Shown one piece after another: positions 39,415-52,524 of a stretch of 64,000 nt of DNA (position 1 is its first letter; every line of letters starts with the position of its first letter). Below the pieces are notes generated by a model, which was given only the letters and a program-made list of their open reading frames with translations, was not told the DNA's origin and did not search any database. The position numbers and the translations under genes are program-made. This stretch comes from Escherichia phage vB_EcoM_ESCO47: the sequence record OM386662.1, one strand, 5' to 3'.

Positions 39415-40542
39415 TTATTCCGATGCTTCTCTAAATTCTTGACCAAATACTTTACCCGTATCAGTTGAAGATTGGGTAGGGAACGTCATAATATCTGGAG
39501 GACTTAAAGATTCTGAAACATAATTTACACGAATACCATTTACACCAAATTCTGCGGCCTTCGGTATACTTCCATTACACGAAACTTCAGTGAATATAAT
39601 ATTTCGTAATCCACCTTGACCGGCTGCCGCAGTTCGATAACAATAAATTGTGAACCCGTCAGCATCAGCAGGAATTTTAGTATACTCTTCAAATATCTTC
39701 CATTGTCCTGCTGTTCCATCAAAGTTTAAATCTTTAAATGAAATAGGAGACGTTGAAGGAGATTTAAAGAAACGTATAGAAAGTCTTGTGGTTCCTTGAG
39801 CTAACAAATCAGCGTCAGCCATCATCTGGAATTTCGTATAAAGAAAATCACCAGGCTTTAAATTGTAGTTAGCAAGAGGAGTCACTAGTGATGTTGTAGG
39901 CATCCTTTTAACTTCATTATTAGTTCCACCAACGGTAGATAAAAATGTATCCGTCGATTCAAATGTGCGAACAGGGAAACCGGTAGCACCTATATCATCA
40001 ATTGTATCATAAACGACTTCTAACGGAGTGCTATAATCAGCACGAGACTTTTTATTTCCATATTTTATATGCTCTAAAGCAATAGCGTTCTTTCCTGACA
40101 CATAAAACGCGGAATATGAAATGTCCACGATATTTAACACCGGTTGAGCCATAGGAATAACTGAACTACCTGCTTTAGTGAACCAAGTTAAAACTTCAGG
40201 CGGGAAGTTAGTCTTATTATTTGTCACAAAAGCAAATATGAATCCGGGAGCGTAAGAGTTCATAAATGCAACAAAAGCATTTGAAGTTGCGTCGTTTACA
40301 GTAGAAAAATTATAAACTTTACTTTCTACTATGGCACCTGACGACGGATTTATAATGCGAACATTTAATCCAACTGCGAAAACTTGACCACCGAGCGGAC
40401 TATCCTGAAAATTTATATACGGGTTTGTAGTTGAAAGCGGGCATGAACCCGCTATACTTAATTTAAATCTTACTGAATTGCTTTCCGATAAAAATGGCGT
40501 TTGGACGTATCCTTGTCCAAACTTAGCCATAAATTTTTCCAT
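39415..40542 (-). CDS. 35: long tail fibre hinge protein gp35
   Basis: 375 aa; size and position between 34 and 36. Confidence 0.85.
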   Translation of the reverse strand: MEKFMAKFGQGYVQTPFLSESNSVRFKLSIAGSCPLSTTNPYINFQDSPLGGQVFAVGLNVRIINPSSGAIVESKVYNFSTVNDATSNAFVAFMNSYAPGFIFAFVTNNKTNFPPEVLTWFTKAGSSVIPMAQPVLNIVDISYSAFYVSGKNAIALEHIKYGNKKSRADYSTPLEVVYDTIDDIGATGFPVRTFESTDTFLSTVGGTNNEVKRMPTTSLVTPLANYNLKPGDFLYTKFQMMADADLLAQGTTRLSIRFFKSPSTSPISFKDLNFDGTAGQWKIFEEYTKIPADADGFTIYCYRTAAAGQGGLRNIIFTEVSCNGSIPKAAEFGVNGIRVNYVSESLSPPDIMTFPTQSSTDTGKVFGQEFREASE

Positions 40543-40550
40543 AATACCTC

Positions 40551-43500
40551 TTATTCAATCCATTCGAATTTAACGGTTTTATTAATTGGATCTGGAACAA
40601 TTCTAACATTACCTATACGCAAGAAGTCACGAATAGTAAGGTTACCAATTACCGCGTTATCTGAAGGCAGAGCACCGACATCTGACGGTGAAGGTGGGTT
40701 ACCACTATCAAACACCATAGCAAAAGACGTCCAAGCATCTTTATTTCTCTGCCAGGTTCTAGTGTAACGTATACTACCGCCATTAGCTCCTGTCGGATAA
40801 CAAATCCAATCTTGATAAAGAGAATTTAAACTATTACCGAATTGGGTTAATGTGCCTGGATATTTAATTTCTTGAACACGATTACCTGCAGCATCCCTAG
40901 TCCAATAACCTGGGAACTGAGTATATGTCGCTTCATCATTAATATCGATAGACCAGAATCCAACCGTGCCTTCGGTAGGTTTACGAGTATAAAGATCAGC
41001 CGTTTTAGAGCCACTAGAAATGATTCGACTGTTTACAGTTAAACCACCTGAAGTAATAGTAGCACCATTTGTTATCTGTACACCGTTATCTAATCTAACC
41101 AGACCTGTAGCATTATTGATAGTCAATGGGCGTAATGAGTTAAATGTCCCAGACTGATTACCAGAATCGGTTAAAACGAAATATGAACTATTTCCGGCGT
41201 TATGAATCATAAAGCCGTAGTTACCATTAATCGCTCTAAATGCTATAGGAGATCGAGAAACAATTTCACCATTAGACGAAATAGAACCGGTAGAAGTGGT
41301 CGTACCTGTCACAGTCAAATTACCTGTTGCATTAAGGTTTACGGATGTCAATCCACCATTAACGTTCATCTGGATATTGCCAAGATTATTTCTCTGAGTA
41401 TAGAAATGATGGCTTGTTTCATCACTAACTTCAAATACTGTAGCTCGTGTTTTATCAGCACCGCTGCCAAACGTATTACCAAAAACTCGAATAGAAACGT
41501 TTTCTGTTGAACTTGTGGCGTACTGATTTCCCTTTTCGAAAATTAGACGCGGAGCAGTATCGGTATTAGCAATAGTTAATGTACTATTTGCGGATACTGA
41601 ACCACCAAAGAATCCGGTGCTTGTAGATACTAAAGGAGCACTCAGGTTCAATTGTTTAGTCAGACTTAAAGAACCATTAACTGTCTGGTCGATATCTCTA
41701 CGGATAAACTGAAGAGAATCCAGGCCATCTAACAACTCAGTATCAGCGGCTTTTGCTTTCAATGGTAAATAGTTAGCAAGCACACGGTTAAATTCATAAG
41801 GAGAAATAGCATAACTATTTTTCTCGTATAAGTTTAGATCCTGAGTATTGCCTTGTGTATCATTACCAACAAAAGTGATAGAACCGGATGAAGTTTTAAC
41901 GAATCCGCGAATCGCCGTAGTAGCAGCCCATGTTGGTTCATTCTGGACAATCCATTTTAAATTCTTAGGAGATACAGCGGTATTAGCTGAAGTACCAGTA
42001 ACTGTTTCTGCTTGGGTGGCGACTTTAATTACACCTTCAGAAGTTTCAGTGGACTTAGTCCCTAAAAGCTTTTTAGGAGTAATAAGAACATCATCTAAAG
42101 TTCCTGCATTAGATTCTGCCTGGGTCGCTACGCGAAGTGTACCACGTTGTGTTTCATTTGCTTTAGAAATATCGAGAGTATAATGGTTCCACAAGGTTCC
42201 TTCTTCAATAAGTCCGGAATCAGAATTAACACCAGTACGGTCAGAAGAATCAAAATGAGTTTTAACTTTCAAGGGAGTTGAAATTCGAGTATCATCAGTC
42301 CCAGCATCAAATTCAACTTGAGTTGCAATCTCTGCAATACCACTTAAAGCTTCTGTAGCTTTCCTGTCATTTAACGTTTTAGGCGTTACCGCACGAGTAT
42401 AATCAGTCCCAGCATCAGTCTCTGCTTGCGTAGCAATTTCAATTAAACCAATACGTCCGTCTGTAGAAGTTTTCTTATGCAGAGTTTCGGGGGTGACAAC
42501 AGCATGAGAATAACCAGCTTGAGATTGACCTGCAATTACTTCACTTTCAAGAGCCAGAATAGTAGCACCCTGTTGAGTAGAAGTCGCTTTATACTGATCG
42601 AGAGCTTTAGGCGAAATAGTTAACGTAGTTGTGTCTTTATTATAAACGTTAGTGCCTGCAGTCCCACGAGTAGCAGCAGGAGTAGCTGAAGCAGTCGATA
42701 CATATTTAACTATACCTGATAGAGTTTCTGAACCCTGACGTGCCTGTAATTTCTTAGGAGTGATAATAGTTGTATCATCGGTCCCAGCATCAGTCTCTGC
42801 TTGAGTAGCTATTTCTGCTAAACCGCGACGAGTTTCAGTCGCTGTACGCTCATTTAATTTCTTAGGTGTAACAATTGTATCATCAACAAATGTTGCAGTA
42901 GAATCCTGATTAACTTGAGCGGTAGTAGCAGTTTTTGCAATACCACGTCGAGTTTCAGTCGCTGTACGATTAGCTAATGTCTCTGGGGTAATTGCAACTT
43001 CTTTAGCCGGAGAATTTTCTAAATCAACATTTGCTTGTGCTTGGTTAGCCAAAGCAATAACACCTACACGAGCACGAGTAGTATCATTTAATGAATCAAC
43101 ACGTTCTACAGTCGGTATGTTTTGTTGAACAATCCAATAGTTGTTTCTACCGGCTTCTTCGATATAAGCTAATTCAATTACAGGAACATAAGAAGTAGTC
43201 CCATTAAATTCTAACTCTGTAACGGAAACCCAATCGGCATCAGGTGGATATTCTGAACGTTTAGGGAACTGAAGAAGTTCTACACTACTATAAATTGTAT
43301 CGGTACTTGCGGCTTTAATTTTAACCGTTTGACCTTTACGCATATAGTTTAATGAAATTTTAACAGTGTCTCCACTCAAAATTCCGGTAGGAAGAGTAAG
43401 ATTCACAGTTGATACTGAAGCATTGTTAGCACCAAACACGAGAATTTCTTCGTTAGGGCTAATTACGGTGTCAGTTCGTACAATGCGCAGTCGTGATTTC

Positions 43501-44396
43501 TGGTCACCTTCCCATACTCTCCACAAACTAGATGCTGCATCAAAAATAAAAAGAGCATCAGCAAAATTACGACCTTCAGCGATATGTGTCCCAACTTCAC
43601 GGATAGAAGTCGTATCATCAAATGTTTTAACAATTGTATGATACAAAGGGTTTAATTTATCCAAATCGACGAGATTAATTACGTCACCGTTATTAGCGTT
43701 GCGTGGCAATGTAATATTAATAGGAGCTGCACTGGTAAAACGACGAATAATAAAATCATTAGCTTGCGCCTGATAAGGTGCCGCTGGAGTTACTATAGTA
43801 GATTTGTTACCATAATCAACAAGATACATGTGCCATAAACGATTGCTGAAAACTAAAACAATCTGAGATTTAGGGTGAGTCATTAAAACCGAACGAACCT
43901 GTTCGCCTTTAAAGTTCACAATACTCTGAACTGAAGCGTTGATTTGCACTTTAACTGTGCCTGGTTTGCCACCAATATCCGCTAAAACGATTGTATCACC
44001 ATCAACAGGAGAGCTAGGCAAAGTGAAGTCCATGTCATTCCCGGCGGCTGTATTAACAGAAATCGATTCACCTGATGCTAATTGATATGACCCAGTAGAA
44101 ACGGTTATCCACTGTGCATCTGTACGAACTGCACGCCACAGACCTAAATTGAAATTACCTGCCGGAGAAGGAATATCATTAATTGCTTGATATAAGCGGT
44201 TATCATAAAGAACAACAAACCCGCGCACGTATCCGCGTGTATTACTATAATTCTGTACGGTGTTTTCTTGTACCAGGAAGTCAACGTTTACGCCATCAGT
44301 ACCAACTGTACGGTCGGCTAATGCTACGTTAACAATCTTGTCGCCACCGGCGTCCAGTCCGTCTTCGGCTCTGAACTTACGTTTGATGTCGGCCAT
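40551..44396 (-). CDS. 34: long tail fibre proximal subunit gp34
   Basis: 1281 aa; internal repeats of roughly 30 aa (ATQAETDAGTDDT...TPKKL type). Confidence 0.9.
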   Translation of the reverse strand: MADIKRKFRAEDGLDAGGDKIVNVALADRTVGTDGVNVDFLVQENTVQNYSNTRGYVRGFVVLYDNRLYQAINDIPSPAGNFNLGLWRAVRTDAQWITVSTGSYQLASGESISVNTAAGNDMDFTLPSSPVDGDTIVLADIGGKPGTVKVQINASVQSIVNFKGEQVRSVLMTHPKSQIVLVFSNRLWHMYLVDYGNKSTIVTPAAPYQAQANDFIIRRFTSAAPINITLPRNANNGDVINLVDLDKLNPLYHTIVKTFDDTTSIREVGTHIAEGRNFADALFIFDAASSLWRVWEGDQKSRLRIVRTDTVISPNEEILVFGANNASVSTVNLTLPTGILSGDTVKISLNYMRKGQTVKIKAASTDTIYSSVELLQFPKRSEYPPDADWVSVTELEFNGTTSYVPVIELAYIEEAGRNNYWIVQQNIPTVERVDSLNDTTRARVGVIALANQAQANVDLENSPAKEVAITPETLANRTATETRRGIAKTATTAQVNQDSTATFVDDTIVTPKKLNERTATETRRGLAEIATQAETDAGTDDTTIITPKKLQARQGSETLSGIVKYVSTASATPAATRGTAGTNVYNKDTTTLTISPKALDQYKATSTQQGATILALESEVIAGQSQAGYSHAVVTPETLHKKTSTDGRIGLIEIATQAETDAGTDYTRAVTPKTLNDRKATEALSGIAEIATQVEFDAGTDDTRISTPLKVKTHFDSSDRTGVNSDSGLIEEGTLWNHYTLDISKANETQRGTLRVATQAESNAGTLDDVLITPKKLLGTKSTETSEGVIKVATQAETVTGTSANTAVSPKNLKWIVQNEPTWAATTAIRGFVKTSSGSITFVGNDTQGNTQDLNLYEKNSYAISPYEFNRVLANYLPLKAKAADTELLDGLDSLQFIRRDIDQTVNGSLSLTKQLNLSAPLVSTSTGFFGGSVSANSTLTIANTDTAPRLIFEKGNQYATSSTENVSIRVFGNTFGSGADKTRATVFEVSDETSHHFYTQRNNLGNIQMNVNGGLTSVNLNATGNLTVTGTTTSTGSISSNGEIVSRSPIAFRAINGNYGFMIHNAGNSSYFVLTDSGNQSGTFNSLRPLTINNATGLVRLDNGVQITNGATITSGGLTVNSRIISSGSKTADLYTRKPTEGTVGFWSIDINDEATYTQFPGYWTRDAAGNRVQEIKYPGTLTQFGNSLNSLYQDWICYPTGANGGSIRYTRTWQRNKDAWTSFAMVFDSGNPPSPSDVGALPSDNAVIGNLTIRDFLRIGNVRIVPDPINKTVKFEWIE

Positions 44397-44426
44397 TCGT
44401 TTTTCCTTTATTGTTTCAATAATACT

Positions 44427-44434
44427 TATTTATA
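44427..44434 (-). promoter_or_regulatory. late promoter (TATAAATA) for gene 34
   Basis: Plus strand TATTTATA = minus TATAAATA, about 30 nt upstream of the gene 34 start codon at 44396. Confidence 0.7.
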
Positions 44435-44437
44435 CCA

Positions 44438-44467
44438 GTTTACGCTTTCAAACGGTTATGTTACTAT
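44438..44467 (+). promoter_or_regulatory. early promoter-like element upstream of rnh
   Basis: -35 GTTTAC 44438-44443, -10 TACTAT 44462-44467; ATG at 44500. Confidence 0.5.
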
Positions 44468-44499
44468 AGACAAGTTGACTAACTGAACAAGAGGTTCAT

Positions 44500-45417
44500 A
44501 TGGATTTAGAAATGATGTTGGATGAAGATTATAAAGAAGGTGTTGTGCTTGCAGACTTTAGTAACATCGCGTTAGCTGCAGCATTAAACAACTTTGAAGA
44601 CGGTGATAAGATCACAGTACCTATGGTTCGCCATGTAATCTTGAATTCTATTCGTAAAAACGTTGTGATGTTTCGTAAACAAGGTTATTCAAAATTTGTT
44701 CTATGTATGGATAACGCTACTTCGGGTTACTGGCGACGTGACTTTGCATACTACTACAAGAAAAACCGTAAAACTGATCGCGAAGCTTCAAAATGGGATT
44801 GGGAAGGTTATTTCACTGCTCTCCGTCAAGTTGTTGATGAGCTAAAGAAATATATGCCTTATGTTGTAATGGACATTGACAAATATGAAGCGGATGACCA
44901 TATTGGTGTTCTTTCTAAACACTTATCCCTTTTAGGATATAAAGTTCTCATCGCTGCATCTGATGGTGACTTTACACAATTGCACAAATATCCTAACGTA
45001 AAACAATGGTCTCCACCACAGAAAAAATGGGTTAAAACTAAGAATGGTTCTGCTGAAATCGATTGCATGACCAAAATTCTTAAAGGTGACCGTAAGGATG
45101 GTGTCGCATCGGTTCGAGTTCGTGGTGATTTCTGGTTCACACGTCTTGAAGGTGAACGAACTCCAAGCATGAAAACAAGCATTATTGAAGCTATTGCTAA
45201 TGATCGTAGTCAAGCCGAAGTGCTTCTTAGCGCTGAAGAATATAAACGTTATCAAGAAAACTTGGTTTTAATTGATTTCGATTATATTCCTGACAATATT
45301 GCTTCAAACATTATAGAGTATTATAACTCTTACAAACCACAACCTAAAGGCAAGATTTATTCATATTTCGTTAAATCAGGTCTTTCTAAATTAACAAGCG
45401 TAATTAATGAATTCTGA
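44500..45417 (+). CDS. rnh: RNase H (5'-3' exonuclease, FEN family)
   Basis: 305 aa; MDLEMMLDEDYKEG... near-colinear with T4 RNase H as I recall it. Confidence 0.93.
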   Translation: MDLEMMLDEDYKEGVVLADFSNIALAAALNNFEDGDKITVPMVRHVILNSIRKNVVMFRKQGYSKFVLCMDNATSGYWRRDFAYYYKKNRKTDREASKWDWEGYFTALRQVVDELKKYMPYVVMDIDKYEADDHIGVLSKHLSLLGYKVLIAASDGDFTQLHKYPNVKQWSPPQKKWVKTKNGSAEIDCMTKILKGDRKDGVASVRVRGDFWFTRLEGERTPSMKTSIIEAIANDRSQAEVLLSAEEYKRYQENLVLIDFDYIPDNIASNIIEYYNSYKPQPKGKIYSYFVKSGLSKLTSVINEF

Positions 45418-45424
45418 GGTAAAC

Positions 45425-45694
45425 ATGGCTAAGAAAGAAGCAGTCGAATTTAATCAAGATGTACACGGTGAAGAACTGGCGAAACTGGTCAAGGAAGCTT
45501 CCGATAATAAACTTAAAATTTCTGGGTATAACGAACTGATTAAAGACATTCGTATTCGTGCTAAAGACGAACTTGGCGTCGATGGTAAAATGTTTAATCG
45601 TTTGCTGGCTCTTTATCATAAAGATGCTCGCGATCAATTTGAAGCCGAAACCGAAGAAGTGGTGGAATTATATGACACTGTTTTCACTAAGTGA
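45425..45694 (+). CDS. dsbA: double-stranded DNA-binding protein DsbA
   Basis: 89 aa from ATG 45425 (GAGG RBS); listed ORF begins at 45407. Confidence 0.8.
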   Translation: MAKKEAVEFNQDVHGEELAKLVKEASDNKLKISGYNELIKDIRIRAKDELGVDGKMFNRLLALYHKDARDQFEAETEEVVELYDTVFTK

Positions 45695-46010
45695 TATTAA
45701 ACCGGTCGATGAGGCCGGTCTCTCCGAAAAAGAGTTAGCGGTAAAACAAGACAAAGATGATATTGCTAAACTCCTTGATCGCCAAGAAAATGGCTTCTTA
45801 ATCGAGTCTATGGTAAATCAGTACGGTATGACTTATTTAGAAGCAACGACTGCTTTTCTGGAAGAGAACTCTATTCCTGAAACCCAGTTTGCTAAATTTA
45901 TTCCATCAGGAATTATTGAAAAAATTACAAGCGAAGCCGTTGATGAGAATATGCTTCGCCCTTCAATTGCTCGCGGTGAAAAAACTAATACGTTAGATTT
46001 CTTATTATGA
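45672..46010 (+). CDS. 33: late transcription co-activator gp33
   Basis: 112 aa from ATG 45672; ...LDRQENGF...EATTAFLEENSIPETQFAKFIPSGIIEKI matches T4 gp33 as I recall it. Confidence 0.8.
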   Translation: MTLFSLSDIKPVDEAGLSEKELAVKQDKDDIAKLLDRQENGFLIESMVNQYGMTYLEATTAFLEENSIPETQFAKFIPSGIIEKITSEAVDENMLRPSIARGEKTNTLDFLL

Positions 46011-46660
46011 TTAAAATACGCATGCCTCCTGATGGAGAACGTTATATTAATGGAAAATCGGTATACAAACTATACTTGATGTGCAAACAACATTTCAACG
46101 GTCGGTATGACGTAATCAAATATAACTGGTGCATGCGTGTTTCGGATAATGCATATCAAAAACGCCGAGATAAATATTTCTTTGAGAAACTAGCAGAGAA
46201 ATATAAGTTAAAGGAACTCACTCTGATATTCATTAGTAACTTAGTTGCTAACCAAGATGCTTGGATTGGTGAGATATCAGACGCTGATGCATTAGTTTTT
46301 TATAGGGAATATATTGGACGTCTTAAACAAGCCAAGGAGTCGTTCGCTGAAGACGTACGTAACATCTACTATTTCAGTAAGAAAGTGGAAGTTAACGCGC
46401 TTCAAGAAATATTTGATTATAATAATAAAGTTCAGTCGAGCTACATATTCAAACTACTACAAAGTAGTATAATTTCATTTGAGACCTTCTTGTTGTTGGA
46501 CTCATTCCTGAATATTATAGATAAGCATGACGAACTAACCGATAATTTAGTCTGGCAAAACTATTCTACCAAATTAAAGGCATATCGAAAAATACTTCAA
46601 ATCGATAGTAATGCCGCTAAGAAATTGTTCATAGAAACAATCAAATCTTGTAAATATTAA
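46007..46660 (+). CDS. 59: helicase loader gp59
   Basis: 217 aa; near-colinear with T4 gp59 as I recall it. Confidence 0.93.
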   Translation: MIKIRMPPDGERYINGKSVYKLYLMCKQHFNGRYDVIKYNWCMRVSDNAYQKRRDKYFFEKLAEKYKLKELTLIFISNLVANQDAWIGEISDADALVFYREYIGRLKQAKESFAEDVRNIYYFSKKVEVNALQEIFDYNNKVQSSYIFKLLQSSIISFETFLLLDSFLNIIDKHDELTDNLVWQNYSTKLKAYRKILQIDSNAAKKLFIETIKSCKY

Positions 46661-46690
46661 GCTTTATGCTTTGTGTGATAAAATTTATCG

Positions 46691-46698
46691 TATAAATA
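46691..46698 (+). promoter_or_regulatory. late promoter (TATAAATA) upstream of gene 32
   Basis: Exact TATAAATA in the gene 32 leader. Confidence 0.6.
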
Positions 46699-46708
46699 AA
46701 ACATACCA

Positions 46709-46734
46709 GCTACGAGGTGTAGTGTCGTAGCACC
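46709..46734 (+). promoter_or_regulatory. candidate gene 32 leader pseudoknot (translational operator)
   Basis: Stem GCTACG 46709-46714 / CGTAGC 46726-46731; loop GGTG 46716-46719 can pair with CACC 46731-46734; followed by A/U-rich leader to the RBS. Confidence 0.4.
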
Positions 46735-46769
46735 AACTGTAAAATTTAATAATCTAAAAGGTAAATATA

Positions 46770-47678
46770 ATGTTTAAACGTAAATCTACTGCTGACCTCG
46801 CTGCTCAAATGGCTAAACTGAATGGTAATAAAGGTTTCTCTTCAGAAGATAAAGGCGAATGGAAGCTGAAGCTAGATGCATCAGGTAATGGTCAGGCGGT
46901 AATTCGTTTCTTGCCAGCAAAAACTGATGATGCACTACCATTTGCAATTCTTGTTAACCACGGTTTCAAGAAAAATGGTAAATGGTATATTGAAAATTGC
47001 TCTTCTACACATGGTGATTACGACTCTTGTCCTGTATGTCAGTACATTAGTAAAAATGACCTGTACAATACCAACAAAACCGAATATTCTCAACTGAAAC
47101 GTAAAACTTCTTATTGGGCTAATATTCTGGTTGTTAAAGACCCTCAAGCTCCAGATAACGAAGGTAAAGTATTTAAATATCGTTTCGGTAAAAAGATTTG
47201 GGACAAAATCAATGCAATGATTGCTGTTGATACCGAAATGGGTGAAACTCCGGTTGATGTTACTTGTCCTTGGGAAGGTGCTAACTTTGTTCTTAAAGCC
47301 AAGCAGGTTTCTGGTTTCAGTAACTACGATGAATCTAAATTCTTGGGTCAATCTGAAATTCCTCGTATTAACGACGAATCTTTCCAGAAAGAATTGTTTG
47401 ACCAGATGGAAGACCTGTCTGAAATGACTGCTAAAGACAAGTTCAAGTCCTTTGAAAAATTGACTGAATCTTTTGTTAAGGTTCTTGGTACTGCAGCAAT
47501 GGGTGGTGCAGCAGCTGCCGCAGCTAGTGTTGCAGATAAAGTTGCTTCTGATCTTGATGATTTTGATAAAGACATGGAAGCATTCAATACAACATCCACC
47601 AAATCCGCTGATGATTTCATGAGTTCTAGCACATCTTCTGATGATGGCGACCTCGATGACCTGTTAGCTGGTCTATAA
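46770..47678 (+). CDS. 32: single-stranded DNA-binding protein gp32
   Basis: 302 aa; zinc-site CxxC...C region and acidic C-terminal tail. Confidence 0.95.
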
Positions 47679-47684
47679 TAAATC

Positions 47685-47706
47685 GGGAGACTTCGGTCTC
47701 CCTTTT
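47685..47706 (+). terminator. rho-independent terminator after gene 32
   Basis: GGGAGAC-TTCG-GTCTCCC then TTTT. Confidence 0.75.
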
Positions 47707-47732
47707 GAGTATCTGTAAATTGCCGAAAAGTT

Positions 47733-47761
47733 GTTTACTTCTTCCCTGGATGTGTTAGTAT
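47733..47761 (+). promoter_or_regulatory. early promoter-like element
   Basis: -35 GTTTAC 47733-47738, -10 TAGTAT 47756-47761, then AGACCTATCAA; ATG at 47791. Confidence 0.5.
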
Positions 47762-47790
47762 AGACCTATCAACAACATGAGGAAATCAAA

Positions 47791-48183
47791 ATGGAAATCG
47801 GAAAATCTTATATCATTAACCCTTTATTTAAAGACGACTTTGTTCAAGAAGCACCGCACAATAACGCTAAGATGTTAAAATTGATTGAACTCCATGGGCC
47901 CAGTTTTGTTGTAAACGGAATGGAACCTGATTATGATAGCGATACGCTAAACGTAGTAAGTGTAACTATGGAAGACGGTACTGTATGTTCTGCCGGCGGT
48001 GAAATTGAAACTTATTTTGAGATTTATTACGATGAGTTCAAATACTTTACTGAGGTAGATTTAGTAAAGCCTCAACCTACTAACAAAGGTATAGCTTTAG
48101 GTGTAACAAAAATCCATTGTATCGTAGATGAAACCAATGTCGACGAAGTCATCGAACTTTTGCAAAAAACTTTTAAAAAGTAG
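47791..48183 (+). CDS. hypothetical protein (130 aa)
   Basis: Promoter element upstream; no motif recognised. Confidence 0.5.
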   Translation: MEIGKSYIINPLFKDDFVQEAPHNNAKMLKLIELHGPSFVVNGMEPDYDSDTLNVVSVTMEDGTVCSAGGEIETYFEIYYDEFKYFTEVDLVKPQPTNKGIALGVTKIHCIVDETNVDEVIELLQKTFKK

Positions 48184-48222
48184 TTTATAACAAGATAGGG
48201 CTATGTTATAGTAGCCCTATCT
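48183..48222 (+). promoter_or_regulatory. early promoter-like element with long inverted repeat
   Basis: -35 GTTTAT 48183-48188, -10 TATAGT 48207-48212; 11-bp arms AGATAGGGCTA 48193-48203 and TAGCCCTATCT 48212-48222; ATG at 48247. Confidence 0.5.
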
Positions 48223-48246
48223 AATAAAAGTGAAGAGGAGAATAAA

Positions 48247-49926
<1,680 letters not shown>

Positions 49927-50181
49927 ATGATTTTACGTTTTATTAATTCATATGGCACCACAATTTTTGAAATAAAAAATCCTACCGAACTAGATATCCC
50001 TTCACCGAATAGTGAAATCACAGTTAAAGGTGAACGATTCATTTGTTATTCACACGAACGAATTTATGAATATCGCGAATTTTGTGGTGGTTACGGTATG
50101 GAAAAAGAACCATTGGTTTATTTCGATATCACGGTCTTGACACCTAAAGAATACAAAGAAATTATTGCTGAGGATAATTAA
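49927..50181 (+). CDS. hypothetical protein (84 aa)
   Basis: Between td and nrdA. Confidence 0.5.
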   Translation: MILRFINSYGTTIFEIKNPTELDIPSPNSEITVKGERFICYSHERIYEYREFCGGYGMEKEPLVYFDITVLTPKEYKEIIAEDN

Positions 50182-50268
50182 CGCTTCAGTTTAAAAGTGT
50201 ATAATAAATTAACGGGATAAATACTATCCCGTTTGGAGTAATGATTACCAACCTATGCTGAGGAATAT

Positions 50269-52524
50269 ATGCAAGTAACTAAGAGCAGTGGTGTATCCCA
50301 AAATTTTGATGCACAGAAAATTATTCAAGTCTTAACTTGGCAATGTGAAGGAACACAAATTGACCCATATGAATTGTACGAAGAAATTAAGACCCATCTT
50401 GTCGACGGGATGAGCACCAAAGATATCCAGAAGATTTGTATTAAAGTTGCAGCTAACTCGATTTCTGTCGAAGAACCTGATTATCAGTATGTCGCTGCCA
50501 AAGGGCTAATGTTTGCACTTCGTAAAGATGTATATGGGCAGTTTGAACCGCCTGCTTTTATCGACCATATTTCTTATTGTGTTAATGAAGGCAAATATGA
50601 TCCTGAGTTGTTGTCTAGATATTCTGCAGAAGAAATCATTTATCTTGATTCTCGGATTAAACATGAGCGAGATTTTGATCTGACTTATGCTGGTGCTATG
50701 CAGCTTAAAGAAAAATACCTGGTTAAAGATAAAACAACTGGTAAGATTTATGAAACTCCACAGTTTGCTATCATGGCTATCGGTATGGCCTTACATCAAG
50801 ACGAAACTCATGACCGTTTGAAACATATTATTCGTTTTTATGATGCCGTTTCTACTCATCAAGTTTCATTGCCTACTCCAATTATGGCAGGTGCTCGTAC
50901 TCCGACTAGACAGTTTTCCAGCTGTGTAGTTATTGAATCCGGTGATTCGTTGAAGTCTATTAACAAAACGTCAGCATCAATTATCGAATATATTTCCAAA
51001 CGAGCTGGTATTGGTATTAACGTTGGTATGCTTCGCGCTGAAGGTTCTAAAATTGGCATGGGTGAAGTGCGTCATACAGGTGTTATTCCGTTCTGGAAAC
51101 ATTTCCAAACAGCAGTAAAATCTTGTTCTCAAGGTGGTATTCGTGGTGGTGCTGCAACCGCATATTATCCGATGTGGCATTTGGAAGTAGAGAACCTGTT
51201 AGTTCTTAAAAATAACAAAGGTGTTGACGAAAACCGTATCCGTCATATGGACTATGGAATTCAGATTAATGACCTTATGATGGAACGCCTTGGTAAAAAT
51301 GATTATATTACTTTATTTAGCCCTCACGAAATGTCCGGCGAATTGTATTACTCGTTCTTTGAAGACCAAGATAAGTTCCGTGAGCTTTATGAAAAAGCAG
51401 AAAAAGACCCGGCAATCAGAAAGAAACGAATCAAAGCATTAGAACTTTTTGAATTGTTTATGACTGAACGTTCAGGTACTGCTCGAATTTATCCACAGTT
51501 TGTTGATAACACGAATAACTACACTCCGTTTATTCGTGAAAAAGCTCCAATTCGTCAGAGTAACTTATGTTGTGAAATCGCTATTCCGACTAATGATGTT
51601 AACAGTCCTGACGCTGAAATTGGTTTATGCACGTTATCTGCTTTTGTATTAGATAAATTTGATTGGCAAGACCAAGATAAAATTAATGAACTTGCTGAAG
51701 TACAAGTACGTGCACTTGATAACCTGTTAGACTATCAAGATTATCCGGTTCCAGAAGCTTTAAAAGCTAAAAAGCGTCGAAATCTCGGTGTCGGTGTTAC
51801 TAACTATGCAGCTTGGTTAGCTTCTAACTTTGCCTCATATGAAGATGCTAACGATTTGACCCACGAATTATTTGAGAGATTACAGTATGGACTCATTAAA
51901 GCTTCAATCAAGTTGGCCAAAGAAAAAGGACCTTGCGAGTATTATTCAGACACTAAATGGTCTCGAGGCGAATTACCTATCGACTGGTACAATAAAAAGA
52001 TTGACCAAATCGCAGCTCCAAAATACGTTTGTGACTGGTCGGGGCTACGTGAAGACCTTAAGCTCTTTGGCATTCGCAACAGCACATTATCAGCTCTTAT
52101 GCCATGTGAATCAAGCAGCCAGGTTTCCAACTCTACAAACGGTATCGAGCCTCCACGTGGTCCGGTAAGTATTAAAGAATCTAAAGAAGGTAATTTCCGC
52201 CAGGTAGTTCCTAATATCGAACACAACATTGGTCTTTATGACTACGCCTGGAAACTTGCTAAGAAAGGTAATAAACCTTATTTGACTCAAGTTGCTATTA
52301 TGTTGAAATGGGTATGTCAATCGGCTTCAGCCAATACGTACTACGACCCAGAGAATTACGAGAAAGGTAAAGTGCCAATGTCTGTAATGCTTGACGATTT
52401 GCTTTACTTCTGGTACTTCGGCGGTAAAAACCTCTACTATCATAATACTCGCGATGGTTCTGGTACTGACGACTATGAACTAGAAACTCCAAAAGTTGAT
52501 GATTGTTCAGCTTGTAAGCTTTAA
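50269..52524 (+). CDS. nrdA: ribonucleotide reductase class Ia large subunit
   Basis: 751 aa; N-terminal ATP-cone; catalytic core. Confidence 0.95.
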   Translation: MQVTKSSGVSQNFDAQKIIQVLTWQCEGTQIDPYELYEEIKTHLVDGMSTKDIQKICIKVAANSISVEEPDYQYVAAKGLMFALRKDVYGQFEPPAFIDHISYCVNEGKYDPELLSRYSAEEIIYLDSRIKHERDFDLTYAGAMQLKEKYLVKDKTTGKIYETPQFAIMAIGMALHQDETHDRLKHIIRFYDAVSTHQVSLPTPIMAGARTPTRQFSSCVVIESGDSLKSINKTSASIIEYISKRAGIGINVGMLRAEGSKIGMGEVRHTGVIPFWKHFQTAVKSCSQGGIRGGAATAYYPMWHLEVENLLVLKNNKGVDENRIRHMDYGIQINDLMMERLGKNDYITLFSPHEMSGELYYSFFEDQDKFRELYEKAEKDPAIRKKRIKALELFELFMTERSGTARIYPQFVDNTNNYTPFIREKAPIRQSNLCCEIAIPTNDVNSPDAEIGLCTLSAFVLDKFDWQDQDKINELAEVQVRALDNLLDYQDYPVPEALKAKKRRNLGVGVTNYAAWLASNFASYEDANDLTHELFERLQYGLIKASIKLAKEKGPCEYYSDTKWSRGELPIDWYNKKIDQIAAPKYVCDWSGLREDLKLFGIRNSTLSALMPCESSSQVSNSTNGIEPPRGPVSIKESKEGNFRQVVPNIEHNIGLYDYAWKLAKKGNKPYLTQVAIMLKWVCQSASANTYYDPENYEKGKVPMSVMLDDLLYFWYFGGKNLYYHNTRDGSGTDDYELETPKVDDCSACKL

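What the first reader, a model, noticed from the sequence alone, without database searches (positions are those of the whole stretch)
46709..46734. Candidate autoregulatory pseudoknot in the gene 32 leader
A 6-bp stem (GCTACG/CGTAGC) whose loop GGTG can pair with the downstream CACC gives an H-type pseudoknot, followed by an unstructured A/U-rich stretch and the RBS. This is the arrangement known for gp32 translational autoregulation in T4. A TATAAATA late promoter lies just upstream (46691).
Basis: partly seen in the sequence, partly recalled or inferred. Interest (0 to 1): 0.35.

Follow-up and report, generated by a model that had tools for sequence, protein, structure and literature searches.

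The report
Gene 32 autoregulatory pseudoknot, re-drawn

Summary
The window is a T4-like phage related to RB69 (Mosigvirus), about 86% identical over 12 kb. Gene 59 ends at 46660 and gene 32 starts at 46770. So are the TATAAATA at 46691-46698 and the A/U-rich tract with the ribosome-binding site.

The proposed second helix is wrong. Loop GGUG with downstream CACC shares C46731 with the stem, leaves no connecting loop, shows no compensatory change in 12 relatives, and is broken in 28% of cells.

The real second helix is upstream AUACC (46703-46707) with loop GGUGU (46716-46720). This is the geometry of the T4/T2/RB69 gene 32 pseudoknot: S1 5 bp, a 1-nt loop, S2 7 bp, a 4-nt loop, 5' edge at -67. 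Across 12-13 distinct leaders, 96-100% of cells pair, 7-8 of 11-12 pairs carry double compensatory changes, and no shuffle reaches this.

S2 is identical to RB69's, where structure probing, gp32 footprints and autogenous repression are published. The verdict is an orthologue of a textbook element: low novelty, interpretation partly right.

One side observation may be new. An AACUG(U) motif recurs in gene 32 leaders of relatives, including those without a pseudoknot.

The parts
46007..46660 (+). Gene 59 (helicase loader), the upstream neighbour; stop TAA at 46658-46660
   Evidence: ORF. Pfam T4_Gp59_N (1.5e-50) and T4_Gp59_C (1.7e-43).
46659..46684 (+). Middle-promoter-like site: MotA-box-like AAGCTTTA 46659-46666, a 12-nt spacer, then TAAAAT 46679-46684 preceded by TGA. 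A consensus match only. A transcript from it would include the whole pseudoknot.
   Evidence: Read. The same arrangement is seen in RB69 (AAGCTTTA-N12-TAAAAT) and T6 (TTGCTTA-N12-TATAAT). It fits the GCTT(N13-15)TATAAT rule that the SA79RD record applies to a promoter inside its gene 59. The sigma-70 scan did not flag it. Inferred, not demonstrated.
46691..46698 (+). T4-type late promoter motif TATAAATA. The predicted +1 is near 46704 (-66), at the 5' edge of stem 1.
   Evidence: The motif occupies -13 to -6 relative to the start site according to PMC1524935. The homologous motif is annotated as a late promoter in SA79RD. It is present at a similar distance in RB69, L016/17 and L021. It is not enriched in the window as a motif (5 found, 7 expected).
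46703..46707 (+). Pseudoknot stem 1, 5' strand: AUACC
   Evidence: Pairs with 46716-46720. Four of five pairs carry double compensatory changes.
46708..46708 (+). Loop 1: a single A, invariant in all compact-form relatives
   Evidence: Alignments A1/A2, invariant column.
46709..46715 (+).
   Evidence: 100% of cells are paired and 4 of 7 pairs carry double changes. Identical to RB69.
46716..46720 (+). Pseudoknot stem 1, 3' strand: GGUGU, directly abutting stem 2. G46719 makes a U.G wobble where RB69 has U-A.
46721..46724 (+). Loop 2: AGUG (RB69 has AAGUG, T4 AAGUG/AGUG, T6 UACAUCG)
46725..46731 (+). Pseudoknot stem 2, 3' strand: UCGUAGC
46732..46769 (+). 38-nt A/U-rich tract that gp32 is expected to coat cooperatively. 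It holds ACC-AACUGU (AACUGU at 46735-46740), UAAA/UUAA repeats (46740-43, 46746-49, 46755-59, 46762-65) and SD AAGG at 46758-46761.
   Evidence: Mean predicted unpaired probability is 0.61-0.65. The homologous RB69 segment A(-1) to A(-45) is chemically accessible and protected by gp32 (PMC535899).
46770..47678 (+). Gene 32 (single-strand DNA-binding protein), the regulated gene and the presumed repressor
   Evidence: Pfam gp32 7.3e-62. Matches T4 gp32 8gme at 3.8e-160. The N-terminal FKRKST and the Zn-site segment are conserved in the alignment.
47685..47702 (+). Intrinsic terminator after gene 32: GGGAGAC-TTCG-GTCTCCC followed by TTTTGAGT

Best explanation
Positions 46703-46731 encode the orthologue of the T4/T2/RB69 gene 32 mRNA pseudoknot. 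It is a compact H-type fold:
- stem 1: AUACC 46703-07 with GGUGU 46716-20;
- loop 1: a single A (46708);
- stem 2: GCUACGA 46709-15 with UCGUAGC 46725-31;
- loop 2: AGUG (46721-24).

The two stems abut directly, which allows coaxial stacking.

By homology with T4 and RB69, the mechanism is as follows. When gp32 exceeds the available single-stranded DNA, it nucleates at the pseudoknot. It then spreads cooperatively 3'-ward along the 38-nt unstructured A/U-rich tract (46732-46769). That covers the Shine-Dalgarno sequence and the AUG and blocks ribosome entry, which is autogenous translational repression.

What is shown here: the sequence, the geometry, the position, the homology and the covariation of both helices.

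What is inferred: that gp32 of this phage binds the element and represses translation, and which promoters and processing sites define the 5' end.
For: 1. Context. The element lies in the 109-nt gene 59-gene 32 spacer, and both genes are confirmed.

2. Homology. S2 is identical to RB69's. S1 differs from RB69 by one A-to-G change that keeps pairing (U-A to U.G). The alignment with T4 and T6 is colinear.

3. Geometry. S1 5 bp, L1 1 nt, S2 7 bp, L2 4 nt, 5' edge at -67. The review of T4 places its pseudoknot 67 nt upstream of the AUG (PMC3014915). The ~28-nt size is given in PMC535899.

4. Covariation.
- On A2 (12 distinct leaders), 96.5% of cells pair and 8 of 12 pairs carry double changes. Covariation is 0.638 against 0.218 in shuffles (0/500 reach it). 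Slid controls give 25-56% paired.
- On the untrimmed MAFFT alignment A1, 100% of 141 cells pair and 7 of 11 pairs carry double changes.
- L114 has an entirely different S1 (AAAGCU/AGCUUU) in the same register.

5. Stability. The helices are at least as stable as those of T4's experimentally established pseudoknot. The rough pseudoknot estimate is -10.6 kcal/mol, against -8.7 for the S2 hairpin alone. For T4 the figures are -8.0 and -7.3.

6. Published experiments on the near-identical RB69 element (PMC535899):
- the pseudoknot segment is sensitive to RNase V1;
- A(-1) to A(-45) is accessible;
- RB69 gp32 footprints from U(-14) to G(-61);
- deleting pseudoknot elements was tested in repression assays, and RB69 gp32 is an autogenous repressor.

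7. The repressor. The window's gp32 keeps the N-terminal FKRKST segment and the core domain.
Against: - There are no experimental data for this phage.
- Nested MFE folding is not better than shuffles (z = -0.69).
- In longer transcripts nested folding prefers a competing long-range helix, 46713-46723 with 46791-46800. That model cannot score pseudoknots, and the competing helix is only partly kept in T4/T6.
- A pseudoknot of this geometry arises about 5 times per 64 kb by chance.
- Loop 2 is only 4 nt for a 5-bp stem 1, so the outermost A46703-U46720 pair may not form. That outer position is unpaired in 5 of 12 relatives.
- The late-promoter +1 (about 46704) would remove A46703.
- Rfam has no model for this element, so no independent covariance-model confirmation was possible.
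- Alignment A2 was built from sequences whose loop 2 I trimmed by hand. A1 was not trimmed and gives the same answer.
Confidence: 0.9

Rival explanations
1. One reading: an H-type pseudoknot in which the hairpin loop GGUG (46716-19) pairs with the downstream CACC (46731-34).
For: The complementarity exists literally in the window. GG in the loop and ACC after the stem are fairly conserved: 11/12, 9/12 and 6/12 cells pair at the three positions.
Against: - C46731 is already the closing base of the stem.
- The three remaining pairs give -0.9 kcal/mol.
- The connecting loop is 0 nt.
- There are no compensatory changes, and all 10 departures in 36 cells are breaks (72% paired).
- L016/L017 have AAC after the stem in place of ACC, and in L114 none of the three pairs forms, yet all three keep the upstream pairing.
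- The same loop bases covary with the upstream strand.
Confidence: 0.03
2. A simple hairpin (stem 2 only) that acts as a rho-independent terminator at the end of gene 59. The homologous hairpin is annotated this way in phage SA79RD.
For: GenBank record OL960576 annotates the homologous 34-nt segment as a 'rho-independent terminator; WebGeSTer'. The hairpin is a perfect 7-bp stem.
Against: - No U-tract follows. The next bases are ACCAACUGUAAAA.
- The terminator scan does not flag it, although it does flag the real terminator after gene 32 at 47685-47702.
- A late promoter and a middle-promoter-like site lie upstream of the hairpin, so gene 32 transcripts must read through it.
- The covariation of stem 1 has no explanation under a terminator model.
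- In T4 polycistronic transcripts reach gene 32 from far upstream, since an RNase E cleavage at -1340 is mapped in them (PMC3014915).
Confidence: 0.03
3. The pseudoknot is real, but its main role is to stabilise the mRNA 5' end or to define processing. It would protect the unusually long-lived gene 32 mRNA from RNase E rather than, or in addition to, nucleating gp32.
For: - T4 gene 32 mRNAs are the most stable T4 messages, and all are cut by RNase E at -71, just 5' of the pseudoknot (PMC3014915).
- In the window the late-promoter +1 (about 46704) also puts the pseudoknot at the extreme 5' end.
- The same juxtaposition occurs in L016/17 and L021.
Against: This role is not exclusive of autoregulation. 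For T4 and RB69 the pseudoknot is documented as required for repression and is footprinted by gp32 (PMC535899). Nothing here tests stability.
Confidence: 0.3
4. A chance hairpin with no function.
For: Such motifs are common in this A/T-rich genome, and nested folding is unremarkable.
Against: The position, homology and double compensatory changes in both helices hold across at least 8 diverged lineages. The leader is no more than 86% identical to any phage record, yet both helices are intact.
Confidence: 0.01

Closest known systems
Phage RB69 gene 32 translational operator (Borjac-Natour, Petrov & Karam 2004, PMC535899)
   Same: - Same gene 59-gene 32 spacer with no segG.
- Identical stem 2 (GCUACGA/UCGUAGC) and the same stem 1 5' strand (AUACC).
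- The same TATAAATA and the same MotA-box-like site upstream.
- The same SD context GGUAAAUAUAAUG.
   Different: - Stem 1 3' strand is GGUGU, not GGUAU (U.G in place of U-A).
- Loop 2 is AGUG, not AAGUG.
- ACC follows the stem, not AACC.
- The A/U tract is 38 nt, not 45 nt, which is T4-like in length.
- The leader is at most 86% identical to Mosigvirus records, and the exact 38-mer is absent from IMG/VR.
Phage T4 gene 32 autoregulatory pseudoknot/operator (McPheeters, Stormo & Gold 1988; Shamoo et al. 1993; cited via PMC535899 and PMC3014915)
   Same: - H-type fold with a 1-nt loop 1 and a 7-bp stem 2.
- 5' edge at -67.
- ACCAACUGU directly 3' of the fold.
- An A/U tract of about 38-39 nt with UAAA/UUAAA repeats running into the RBS.
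   Different: - T4's stem 1 is UGCC/GGUA (4 bp).
- T4's stem 2 has U-A where the window has C-G (GCUAUGA).
- In T4 the 5' strand of stem 1 overlaps the segG reading frame, and no TATAAATA lies within 140 nt upstream.
Phage T2/T6 gene 32 pseudoknot (NMR structure, PDB 2TPK; Holland et al. 1999, cited in PMC3014915)
   Same: Same topology. Two abutting stems are reported as coaxially stacked A-form helices. Stem 1 is 5 bp, loop 1 is one A and stem 2 is 7 bp (T6 sequence).
   Different: Stem 1 is UGACC/GGUCA. Loop 2 is 7 nt (UACAUCG) against 4 nt here. The late promoter lies about 20 nt further upstream, embedded in the middle-promoter spacer.
T4 gene 43 (DNA polymerase) operator hairpin and the E. 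coli rpsO/S15 pseudoknot
   Same: Both are autogenous translational repression through a structured element 5' of the RBS (PMC3014915).
   Different: The gene 43 operator is a plain hairpin with no pseudoknot. The S15 pseudoknot includes the RBS itself and traps the ribosome. Neither is homologous to this element.

Membership tests
T-even gene 32 autoregulatory pseudoknot / translational operator | Lies in the 5' leader of gene 32, with its 5' edge about 67 nt upstream of the AUG | tested here: met
   Stem 1 starts at 46703, which is -67 from A46770. Gene 32 is confirmed by Pfam and PDB matches. The T4 value comes from PMC3014915.
T-even gene 32 autoregulatory pseudoknot / translational operator | Compact H-type topology: upstream strand pairs with the hairpin loop (S1 4-5 bp), 1-nt loop 1, 7-bp S2, 4-7-nt loop 2, and the S1 3' strand abuts the S2 5' strand | tested here: met
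   AUACC / A / GCUACGA / GGUGU / AGUG / UCGUAGC. The register is the same as in T4, T6 and RB69.
T-even gene 32 autoregulatory pseudoknot / translational operator | Both helices supported by compensatory changes among relatives | tested here: met
   8 of 12 pairs (A2) and 7 of 11 pairs (A1) carry double changes. 96.5-100% of cells pair. 0 of 500 shuffles reach this, and slid controls give no more than 56% paired.
T-even gene 32 autoregulatory pseudoknot / translational operator | Sequence homology to characterised members | tested here: met
   S2 is identical to RB69's. There are 13 invariant columns across 12 leaders.
T-even gene 32 autoregulatory pseudoknot / translational operator | Adjacent 3' unstructured A/U-rich tract with UUAAA/UAAA repeats running into the RBS | tested here: met
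   The 38-nt tract 46732-46769 holds 3 UAAA and 1 UUAA and ends in AAGG-N8-AUG. Predicted mean unpaired probability is 0.61-0.65, which is only moderately supportive.
T-even gene 32 autoregulatory pseudoknot / translational operator | Cognate gp32 with an N-terminal cooperativity segment and a Zn-containing ssDNA/RNA-binding core | tested here: met
   The alignment to T4 gp32 (8gme, 3.8e-160) shows MFKRKST and [14 protein letters not shown] conserved. That these segments serve cooperativity and Zn binding is my own knowledge of T4 gp32.
T-even gene 32 autoregulatory pseudoknot / translational operator | gp32 binds the pseudoknot and represses translation of its own mRNA | not testable with these tools
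   Shown for T4 and RB69 only (PMC535899). Inferred here by orthology.
T-even gene 32 autoregulatory pseudoknot / translational operator | RNase E processing just 5' of the pseudoknot (-71 in T4) | not testable with these tools
   Position -71 is 46699, within AAAUAAAACAU, an A/U-rich context. There are no cleavage data (for T4).
Intrinsic (rho-independent) terminator | G+C-rich hairpin followed immediately by a U-tract | tested here: not met
   No T-run follows 46731. The scan does not flag it, although it finds the gene 32 terminator at 47685-47702.
   The helices share C46731 and the connecting loop is 0 nt. There are 0 compensatory changes and 72% of cells pair.
Rfam families | Match to a curated covariance model | tested here: not met
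   Only chance-level hits (E of 2.7 or more) on 46400-47000. No match to any gene 32 family appeared.

The most novel reading that the evidence does not exclude
The gene 32 operator of T4-related enterobacterial phages may contain a second, undescribed specificity element: the motif AACUG(U). In the window it lies at 46735-46740, directly 3' of the pseudoknot.

Where it occurs:
- It is present in the last 70 nt before the gene 32 AUG in 41 of 48 distinct leaders, against 6.9 expected.
- Lineages that lack the pseudoknot carry 2-4 copies, often about 10-13 nt apart. Some copies are written into the last codons of gene 59.
- In the window it precedes no other ORF of 80 aa or more.

If it is functional, it could be the ancestral or primary gp32 nucleation signal, or the site of another regulator, with the pseudoknot as a lineage-specific addition. 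Distant marine T4-likes carry different repeats (AAUACAA) in the same place, which would fit co-evolving operator 'words'.
Probability: 0.3. Interest if true: 0.45.

Novelty: already known. Interest (0 to 1): 0.15.

Why it matters
For the finding as given, the result mainly corrects an annotation. The element is the textbook gp32 autoregulatory pseudoknot, with the RB69-type stems and a T4-length A/U tract, in a phage that is about 86% identical to known Mosigvirus genomes.

The practical value is threefold:
- The pseudoknot's true boundaries are 46703-46731, not 46709-46734. Its pairing partner is upstream. This matters to anyone building a covariance model or designing mutants.
- At least one public record (OL960576) annotates the homologous hairpin as a terminator, which is probably wrong.
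- The survey made here gives clean covariation support for the fold across at least 8 lineages. These include Klebsiella phages, and in a long-loop form Acinetobacter phages. The 2010 review (PMC3014915) called for such a comparison.

The AACUG(U) repeat observation could open a testable question about how pseudoknot-less T4 relatives autoregulate gene 32.

Tried and rejected
- **Rfam scan of 46400-47000 at E up to 10.** Only chance hits, and no gene 32 family matched.
- **Nested MFE folding.** It finds stem 2, but the z-score is -0.69. In longer transcripts it prefers a long-range helix, 46713-23 with 46791-800. I rejected that as a rival because the model cannot score pseudoknots, because the helix rests on Asp/Glu-Leu-Ala codons, and because it is broken in T4/T6.
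- **Motif-count statistics** for hairpins, pseudoknot geometry and TATAAATA. None is enriched enough to carry the argument.
- **Exact search for the window's 38-nt pseudoknot in IMG/VR.** No match.
- **First MAFFT alignment (A1).** It misplaced the gap in loop 2, so the fifth stem 1 pair could not be scored. I made a loop-trimmed alignment (A2) and used A1 only for the four inner pairs.
- **Holland et al. 1999 (PMC1369757).** Not held. The T2 geometry is therefore taken from the T6 sequence and from the review.
- **Literature search for ACUGU/AACUGU with gene 32.** Nothing relevant.
- **Terminator hypothesis.** Rejected.
- **Not done.** I did not build a covariance model, because pseudoknots cannot be encoded in one and the evidence was already sufficient.

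Full report
**Context.** The window around the finding encodes rnh, dsbA, gene 33, gene 59 (46007-46660), gene 32 (46770-47678), then frd and td, all on the + strand. Gene 59 and gene 32 are confirmed by Pfam: T4_Gp59_N and T4_Gp59_C, and gp32 at 7.3e-62. Gene 32 also matches T4 gp32 structures (8gme, 3.8e-160). The nearest phage records are RB69-like Mosigvirus genomes. They are only about 86% identical over 12 kb, 92.8% over 46560-46900, and at most 86% over the 115-nt leader. The finding lies in the 109-nt spacer between genes 59 and 32.

**The observation.** The leader reads TATAAATA(46691-98)-AAAC-AUACC(46703-07)-A-GCUACGA(46709-15)-GGUGU(46716-20)-AGUG-UCGUAGC(46725-31)-ACCAACUGUAAAAUUUAAUAAUCUAAAAGGUAAAUAUA-AUG(46770).

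- The TATAAATA, the A/U-rich tract and the AAGG Shine-Dalgarno are there.
- The proposed loop-to-downstream helix (GGUG 46716-19 with CACC 46731-34) re-uses C46731, the last base of the stem. It leaves a 0-nt connecting loop. Only GGU/ACC (-0.9 kcal/mol as a duplex) could form.

None of the motifs is improbable on its own:
- 82 perfect 7-bp hairpins against 52 +/- 8 in shuffles;
- 5 pseudoknot motifs of T4 geometry per strand against 4.96 expected;
- 5 TATAAATA against 7 expected;
- nested folding z = -0.69.

The case therefore has to rest on homology and covariation.

**What it is.** I aligned the window with RB69 (NC_004928) and T4. The same register holds in all three: a short strand, one A, a 7-nt strand, the complement of the first strand, a short loop, the complement of the 7-nt strand, then ACCAACUGU. 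Stem 2 is identical to RB69's. Stem 1 differs by one A-to-G change, which turns a U-A pair into U.G.

I collected gene 32 leaders from three sources:
- IMG/VR (read);
- 24 phage records;
- metagenomes.

Compact pseudoknots of this form occur in many lineages (unless noted):
- RB69-like phages;
- T4;
- T2/T6-like phages (UGACC/GGUCA);
- L016/L017 (AUGCC/GGCAU with GAUGUGA/UCACAUC);
- L021 (UACC/GGUA with GAUGCAA/UUGCAUC);
- the Klebsiella phages PhiKpNIH-6 (= L029), L015 and Roth78 (GUCC/GGAC with GGUGCAA/UUGCAYC or GUUGCAA/UUGCAAC);
- the metagenomic L114, whose stem 1 is entirely different (AAAGCU/AGCUUU).

**Covariation of the T4-type topology.** On alignment A2 (12 distinct sequences; loop 2 trimmed to a fixed length, everything else untouched):
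- 96.5% of 144 cells pair;
- 8 of 12 pairs carry changes on both sides (4 of 5 in stem 1, 4 of 7 in stem 2);
- the covariation score is 0.638 against 0.218 +/- 0.036 in shuffles (0/500 reach it);
- sliding the partners gives 25-56% paired.

On the untrimmed MAFFT alignment A1, the 11 scorable pairs are 100% paired, and 7 carry double changes.

It shows no compensatory change. All 10 departures in 36 cells are breaks (72% paired). It is missing in L016, L017 and L114. The loop bases covary with the upstream strand, not the downstream one.

**Stability.** ViennaRNA cannot score pseudoknots, so I compared helices.
- S1 as a hairpin is -4.1 kcal/mol and S2 is -8.7 in the window. In T4 they are -3.1 and -7.3.
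- A rough Dirks-Pierce-style sum (helix stacks + 9.6 + 0.1 per loop nucleotide) gives these values:

| Phage | Pseudoknot estimate (kcal/mol) | S2 hairpin alone (kcal/mol) |
|---|---|---|
| window | -10.6 | -8.7 |
| T4 | -8.0 | -7.3 |
| T2/T6 | -11.0 | -7.0 |

By the same yardstick, the window's fold is at least as favourable as those already established experimentally. This is an estimate, not a prediction from a validated pseudoknot program.

**How it most likely works.** For T4, the operator is a ~28-nt pseudoknot plus a 3' tract of more than 40 nt with UUAAA/UAAA repeats and the RBS. Both parts are needed for repression. The pseudoknot is thought to nucleate gp32, which then binds cooperatively through the RBS (PMC535899; PMC3014915).

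For RB69, the published results are:
- the pseudoknot segment is sensitive to RNase V1;
- A(-1) to A(-45) is chemically accessible;
- RB69 gp32 protects U(-14) to G(-61);
- RB69 gp32 represses its own translation in vivo and in vitro.

G(-61) corresponds to G46709, the first base of stem 2. The window's A/U tract is 38 nt, against 39 in T4 and 45 in RB69. Its predicted mean unpaired probability is 0.61-0.65. Its gp32 keeps the N-terminal FKRKST segment and the Zn-site residues. I therefore infer the same mechanism. What is shown here is structure, position and conservation. Binding and repression are inferred by orthology.

**Transcription context.** T4 late promoters place TATAAATA at -13 to -6 (PMC1524935). 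The late +1 would therefore fall at about 46704, the second base of stem 1.
- A similar juxtaposition occurs in L016/17, where +1 is the first base of AUGCC, and in L021.
- In T4 every gene 32 mRNA is cut by RNase E at -71, just 5' of the pseudoknot.

The fold thus sits at or near the 5' end of the mature message in several lineages. That fits an additional stabilising role, which is an inference.

A MotA-box-like AAGCTTTA (46659-66), a 12-nt spacer and TAAAAT (46679-84) resemble a middle promoter. The arrangement is conserved in RB69 and T6. It is a consensus match only.

**Rivals.**
- *Terminator.* The SA79RD record annotates the homologous hairpin as a rho-independent terminator. No U-tract follows it, and the scan does not flag it, although it finds the true gene 32 terminator at 47685-47702. 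A terminator also would not explain the covariation of stem 1.
- *Chance.* Excluded by the covariation.
- *Competing long-range helix.* A helix between 46713-23 and 46791-800 appears in nested folds. It rests on coding sequence and is weakened in T4/T6.

**Comparison and novelty.** Every testable defining feature of the T-even gene 32 operator is met. The untestable ones are gp32 binding, repression and RNase E processing. The element is an orthologue of a textbook structure, with minor differences: a U.G wobble in stem 1, a 4-nt loop 2, and a T4-length tract. The exact 38-mer is absent from IMG/VR. Rfam has no model that matches it. I rate it as already known and of low interest.

**Seen in passing.**
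- AACUG(U) follows the pseudoknot in the window (46735-40). It occurs in the last 70 nt before the gene 32 AUG in 41 of 48 distinct leaders (17 of 23 sequence clusters). Dinucleotide shuffles give 6.9 on average and at most 14 in 200 trials.
- Lineages without a pseudoknot carry 2-4 copies. Some lie within the last gene 59 codons, as ..caACUGUuc..aaACUGUc..aaACUGUaaa.
- In the window it precedes no other ORF of 80 aa or more.
- Distant marine T4-likes carry AAUACAA-type repeats instead.
- I found no mention of the motif in the searchable literature. The older subscription papers could not be searched.
- Long-loop versions of the pseudoknot occur in Acinetobacter Lazarusvirus phages and in L027/L028.

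Noticed in passing
window 46735-46740; loci L002-L026, L088-L095, L114-L119 (last 70 nt before the gene 32 ATG): AACTG(T) is strongly over-represented in gene 32 leaders. It is found in 41 of 48 distinct leaders, against 6.9 expected from shuffles. Lineages without a pseudoknot carry 2-4 copies, often about 10-13 nt apart, some of them inside the last gene 59 codons. In the window it precedes no other ORF of 80 aa or more. No description was found in the held literature.
   Followed up: partly
L031-L080 (marine T4-like contigs, gp32 about 40% identical), about 80 nt before gene 32; L099 (Vibrio phage XZ1): These leaders lack AACTG. They carry repeats of AATACAA/ATACAAC/ATACGA instead (ATACTAT/ATACGAT in XZ1), after a conserved GGTGTAATAT...ACATTATGAA..GTGGAC block. 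This suggests lineage-specific repeated 'words' in gene 32 leaders.
   Followed up: partly
window 46691-46707; L016, L017, L021: With TATAAATA at -13 to -6, the late transcript would start at about 46704, inside or at the edge of the stem 1 5' strand. The same juxtaposition occurs in two other lineages. In T4, RNase E cuts at -71, just 5' of the pseudoknot. The fold therefore sits at the mRNA 5' end in several lineages.
   Followed up: partly
window 46659-46684: A middle-promoter-like site: AAGCTTTA, a 12-nt spacer, then TGA-TAAAAT. It overlaps the gene 59 stop codon. The arrangement is conserved in RB69 and T6, with a similar site in Acinetobacter phage AM101. It is a consensus match only.
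   Followed up: partly
L104 (OL960576, phage SA79RD) 447-480: This public record annotates the homologous pseudoknot hairpin as a 'rho-independent terminator' (WebGeSTer). It has no U-tract and is the gene 32 operator, so this is probably a mis-annotation.
   Followed up: yes
L093 and L185 (Acinetobacter phages AM101, fHyAci03); L027 and L028 (IMG/VR): These carry long-loop versions of the same pseudoknot topology. AM101 has CTCTTATA..GGTGTAC..TATAAGAG..GTACATC followed by ACCAACTG. L027/L028 have CAATGAA..GGTGTAG..TTCATTG..CTACATC. Stem 2 differs by a compensatory C-G to G-C swap, and stem 1 is unrelated in sequence. The fold therefore extends beyond the T-even group.
   Followed up: partly
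L002-L006, L009-L010, L013-L014, L018-L020, L022-L026, L088, L091-L092, L094-L100: Many T4 relatives have no pseudoknot upstream of gene 32. They include Enterobacter PG7-like, Salmonella S16-like, Gaprivervirus, Dhakavirus, Kanagawavirus, Slopekvirus, Pseudotevenvirus, Vibrio and Aeromonas phages. In several, gene 59 ends within about 10-50 nt of the gene 32 start codon.
   Followed up: partly
L103 (SHSML-52-1), L106, L087 (HY03), L112: The A/U-rich tract varies in length through short tandem repeats: AATAATCTA x3 in SHSML-52-1 and AAATT x5 in HY03. The distance from the pseudoknot to the RBS is therefore not fixed.
   Followed up: no
window 46713-46723 with 46791-46800: Nested folding of longer transcripts predicts a competing helix between the stem 2/stem 1 junction (CGAGGU.UAGU) and codons 8-11 of gene 32 (GCUGACCUCG). 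GACCUCG is also present in RB69 but is GAACUCG in T4/T6.
   Followed up: partly
window 47685-47702: A strong bidirectional-looking terminator hairpin, GGGAGAC-TTCG-GTCTCCC, lies 7 nt after the gene 32 stop and is followed by TTTTGAGT.
   Followed up: no
window 40000-52000: This 12-kb stretch is only about 85-86% identical to the closest phage records, which are Mosigvirus. The window therefore appears to come from a lineage not represented at species level in the August 2025 phage collection.
   Followed up: no
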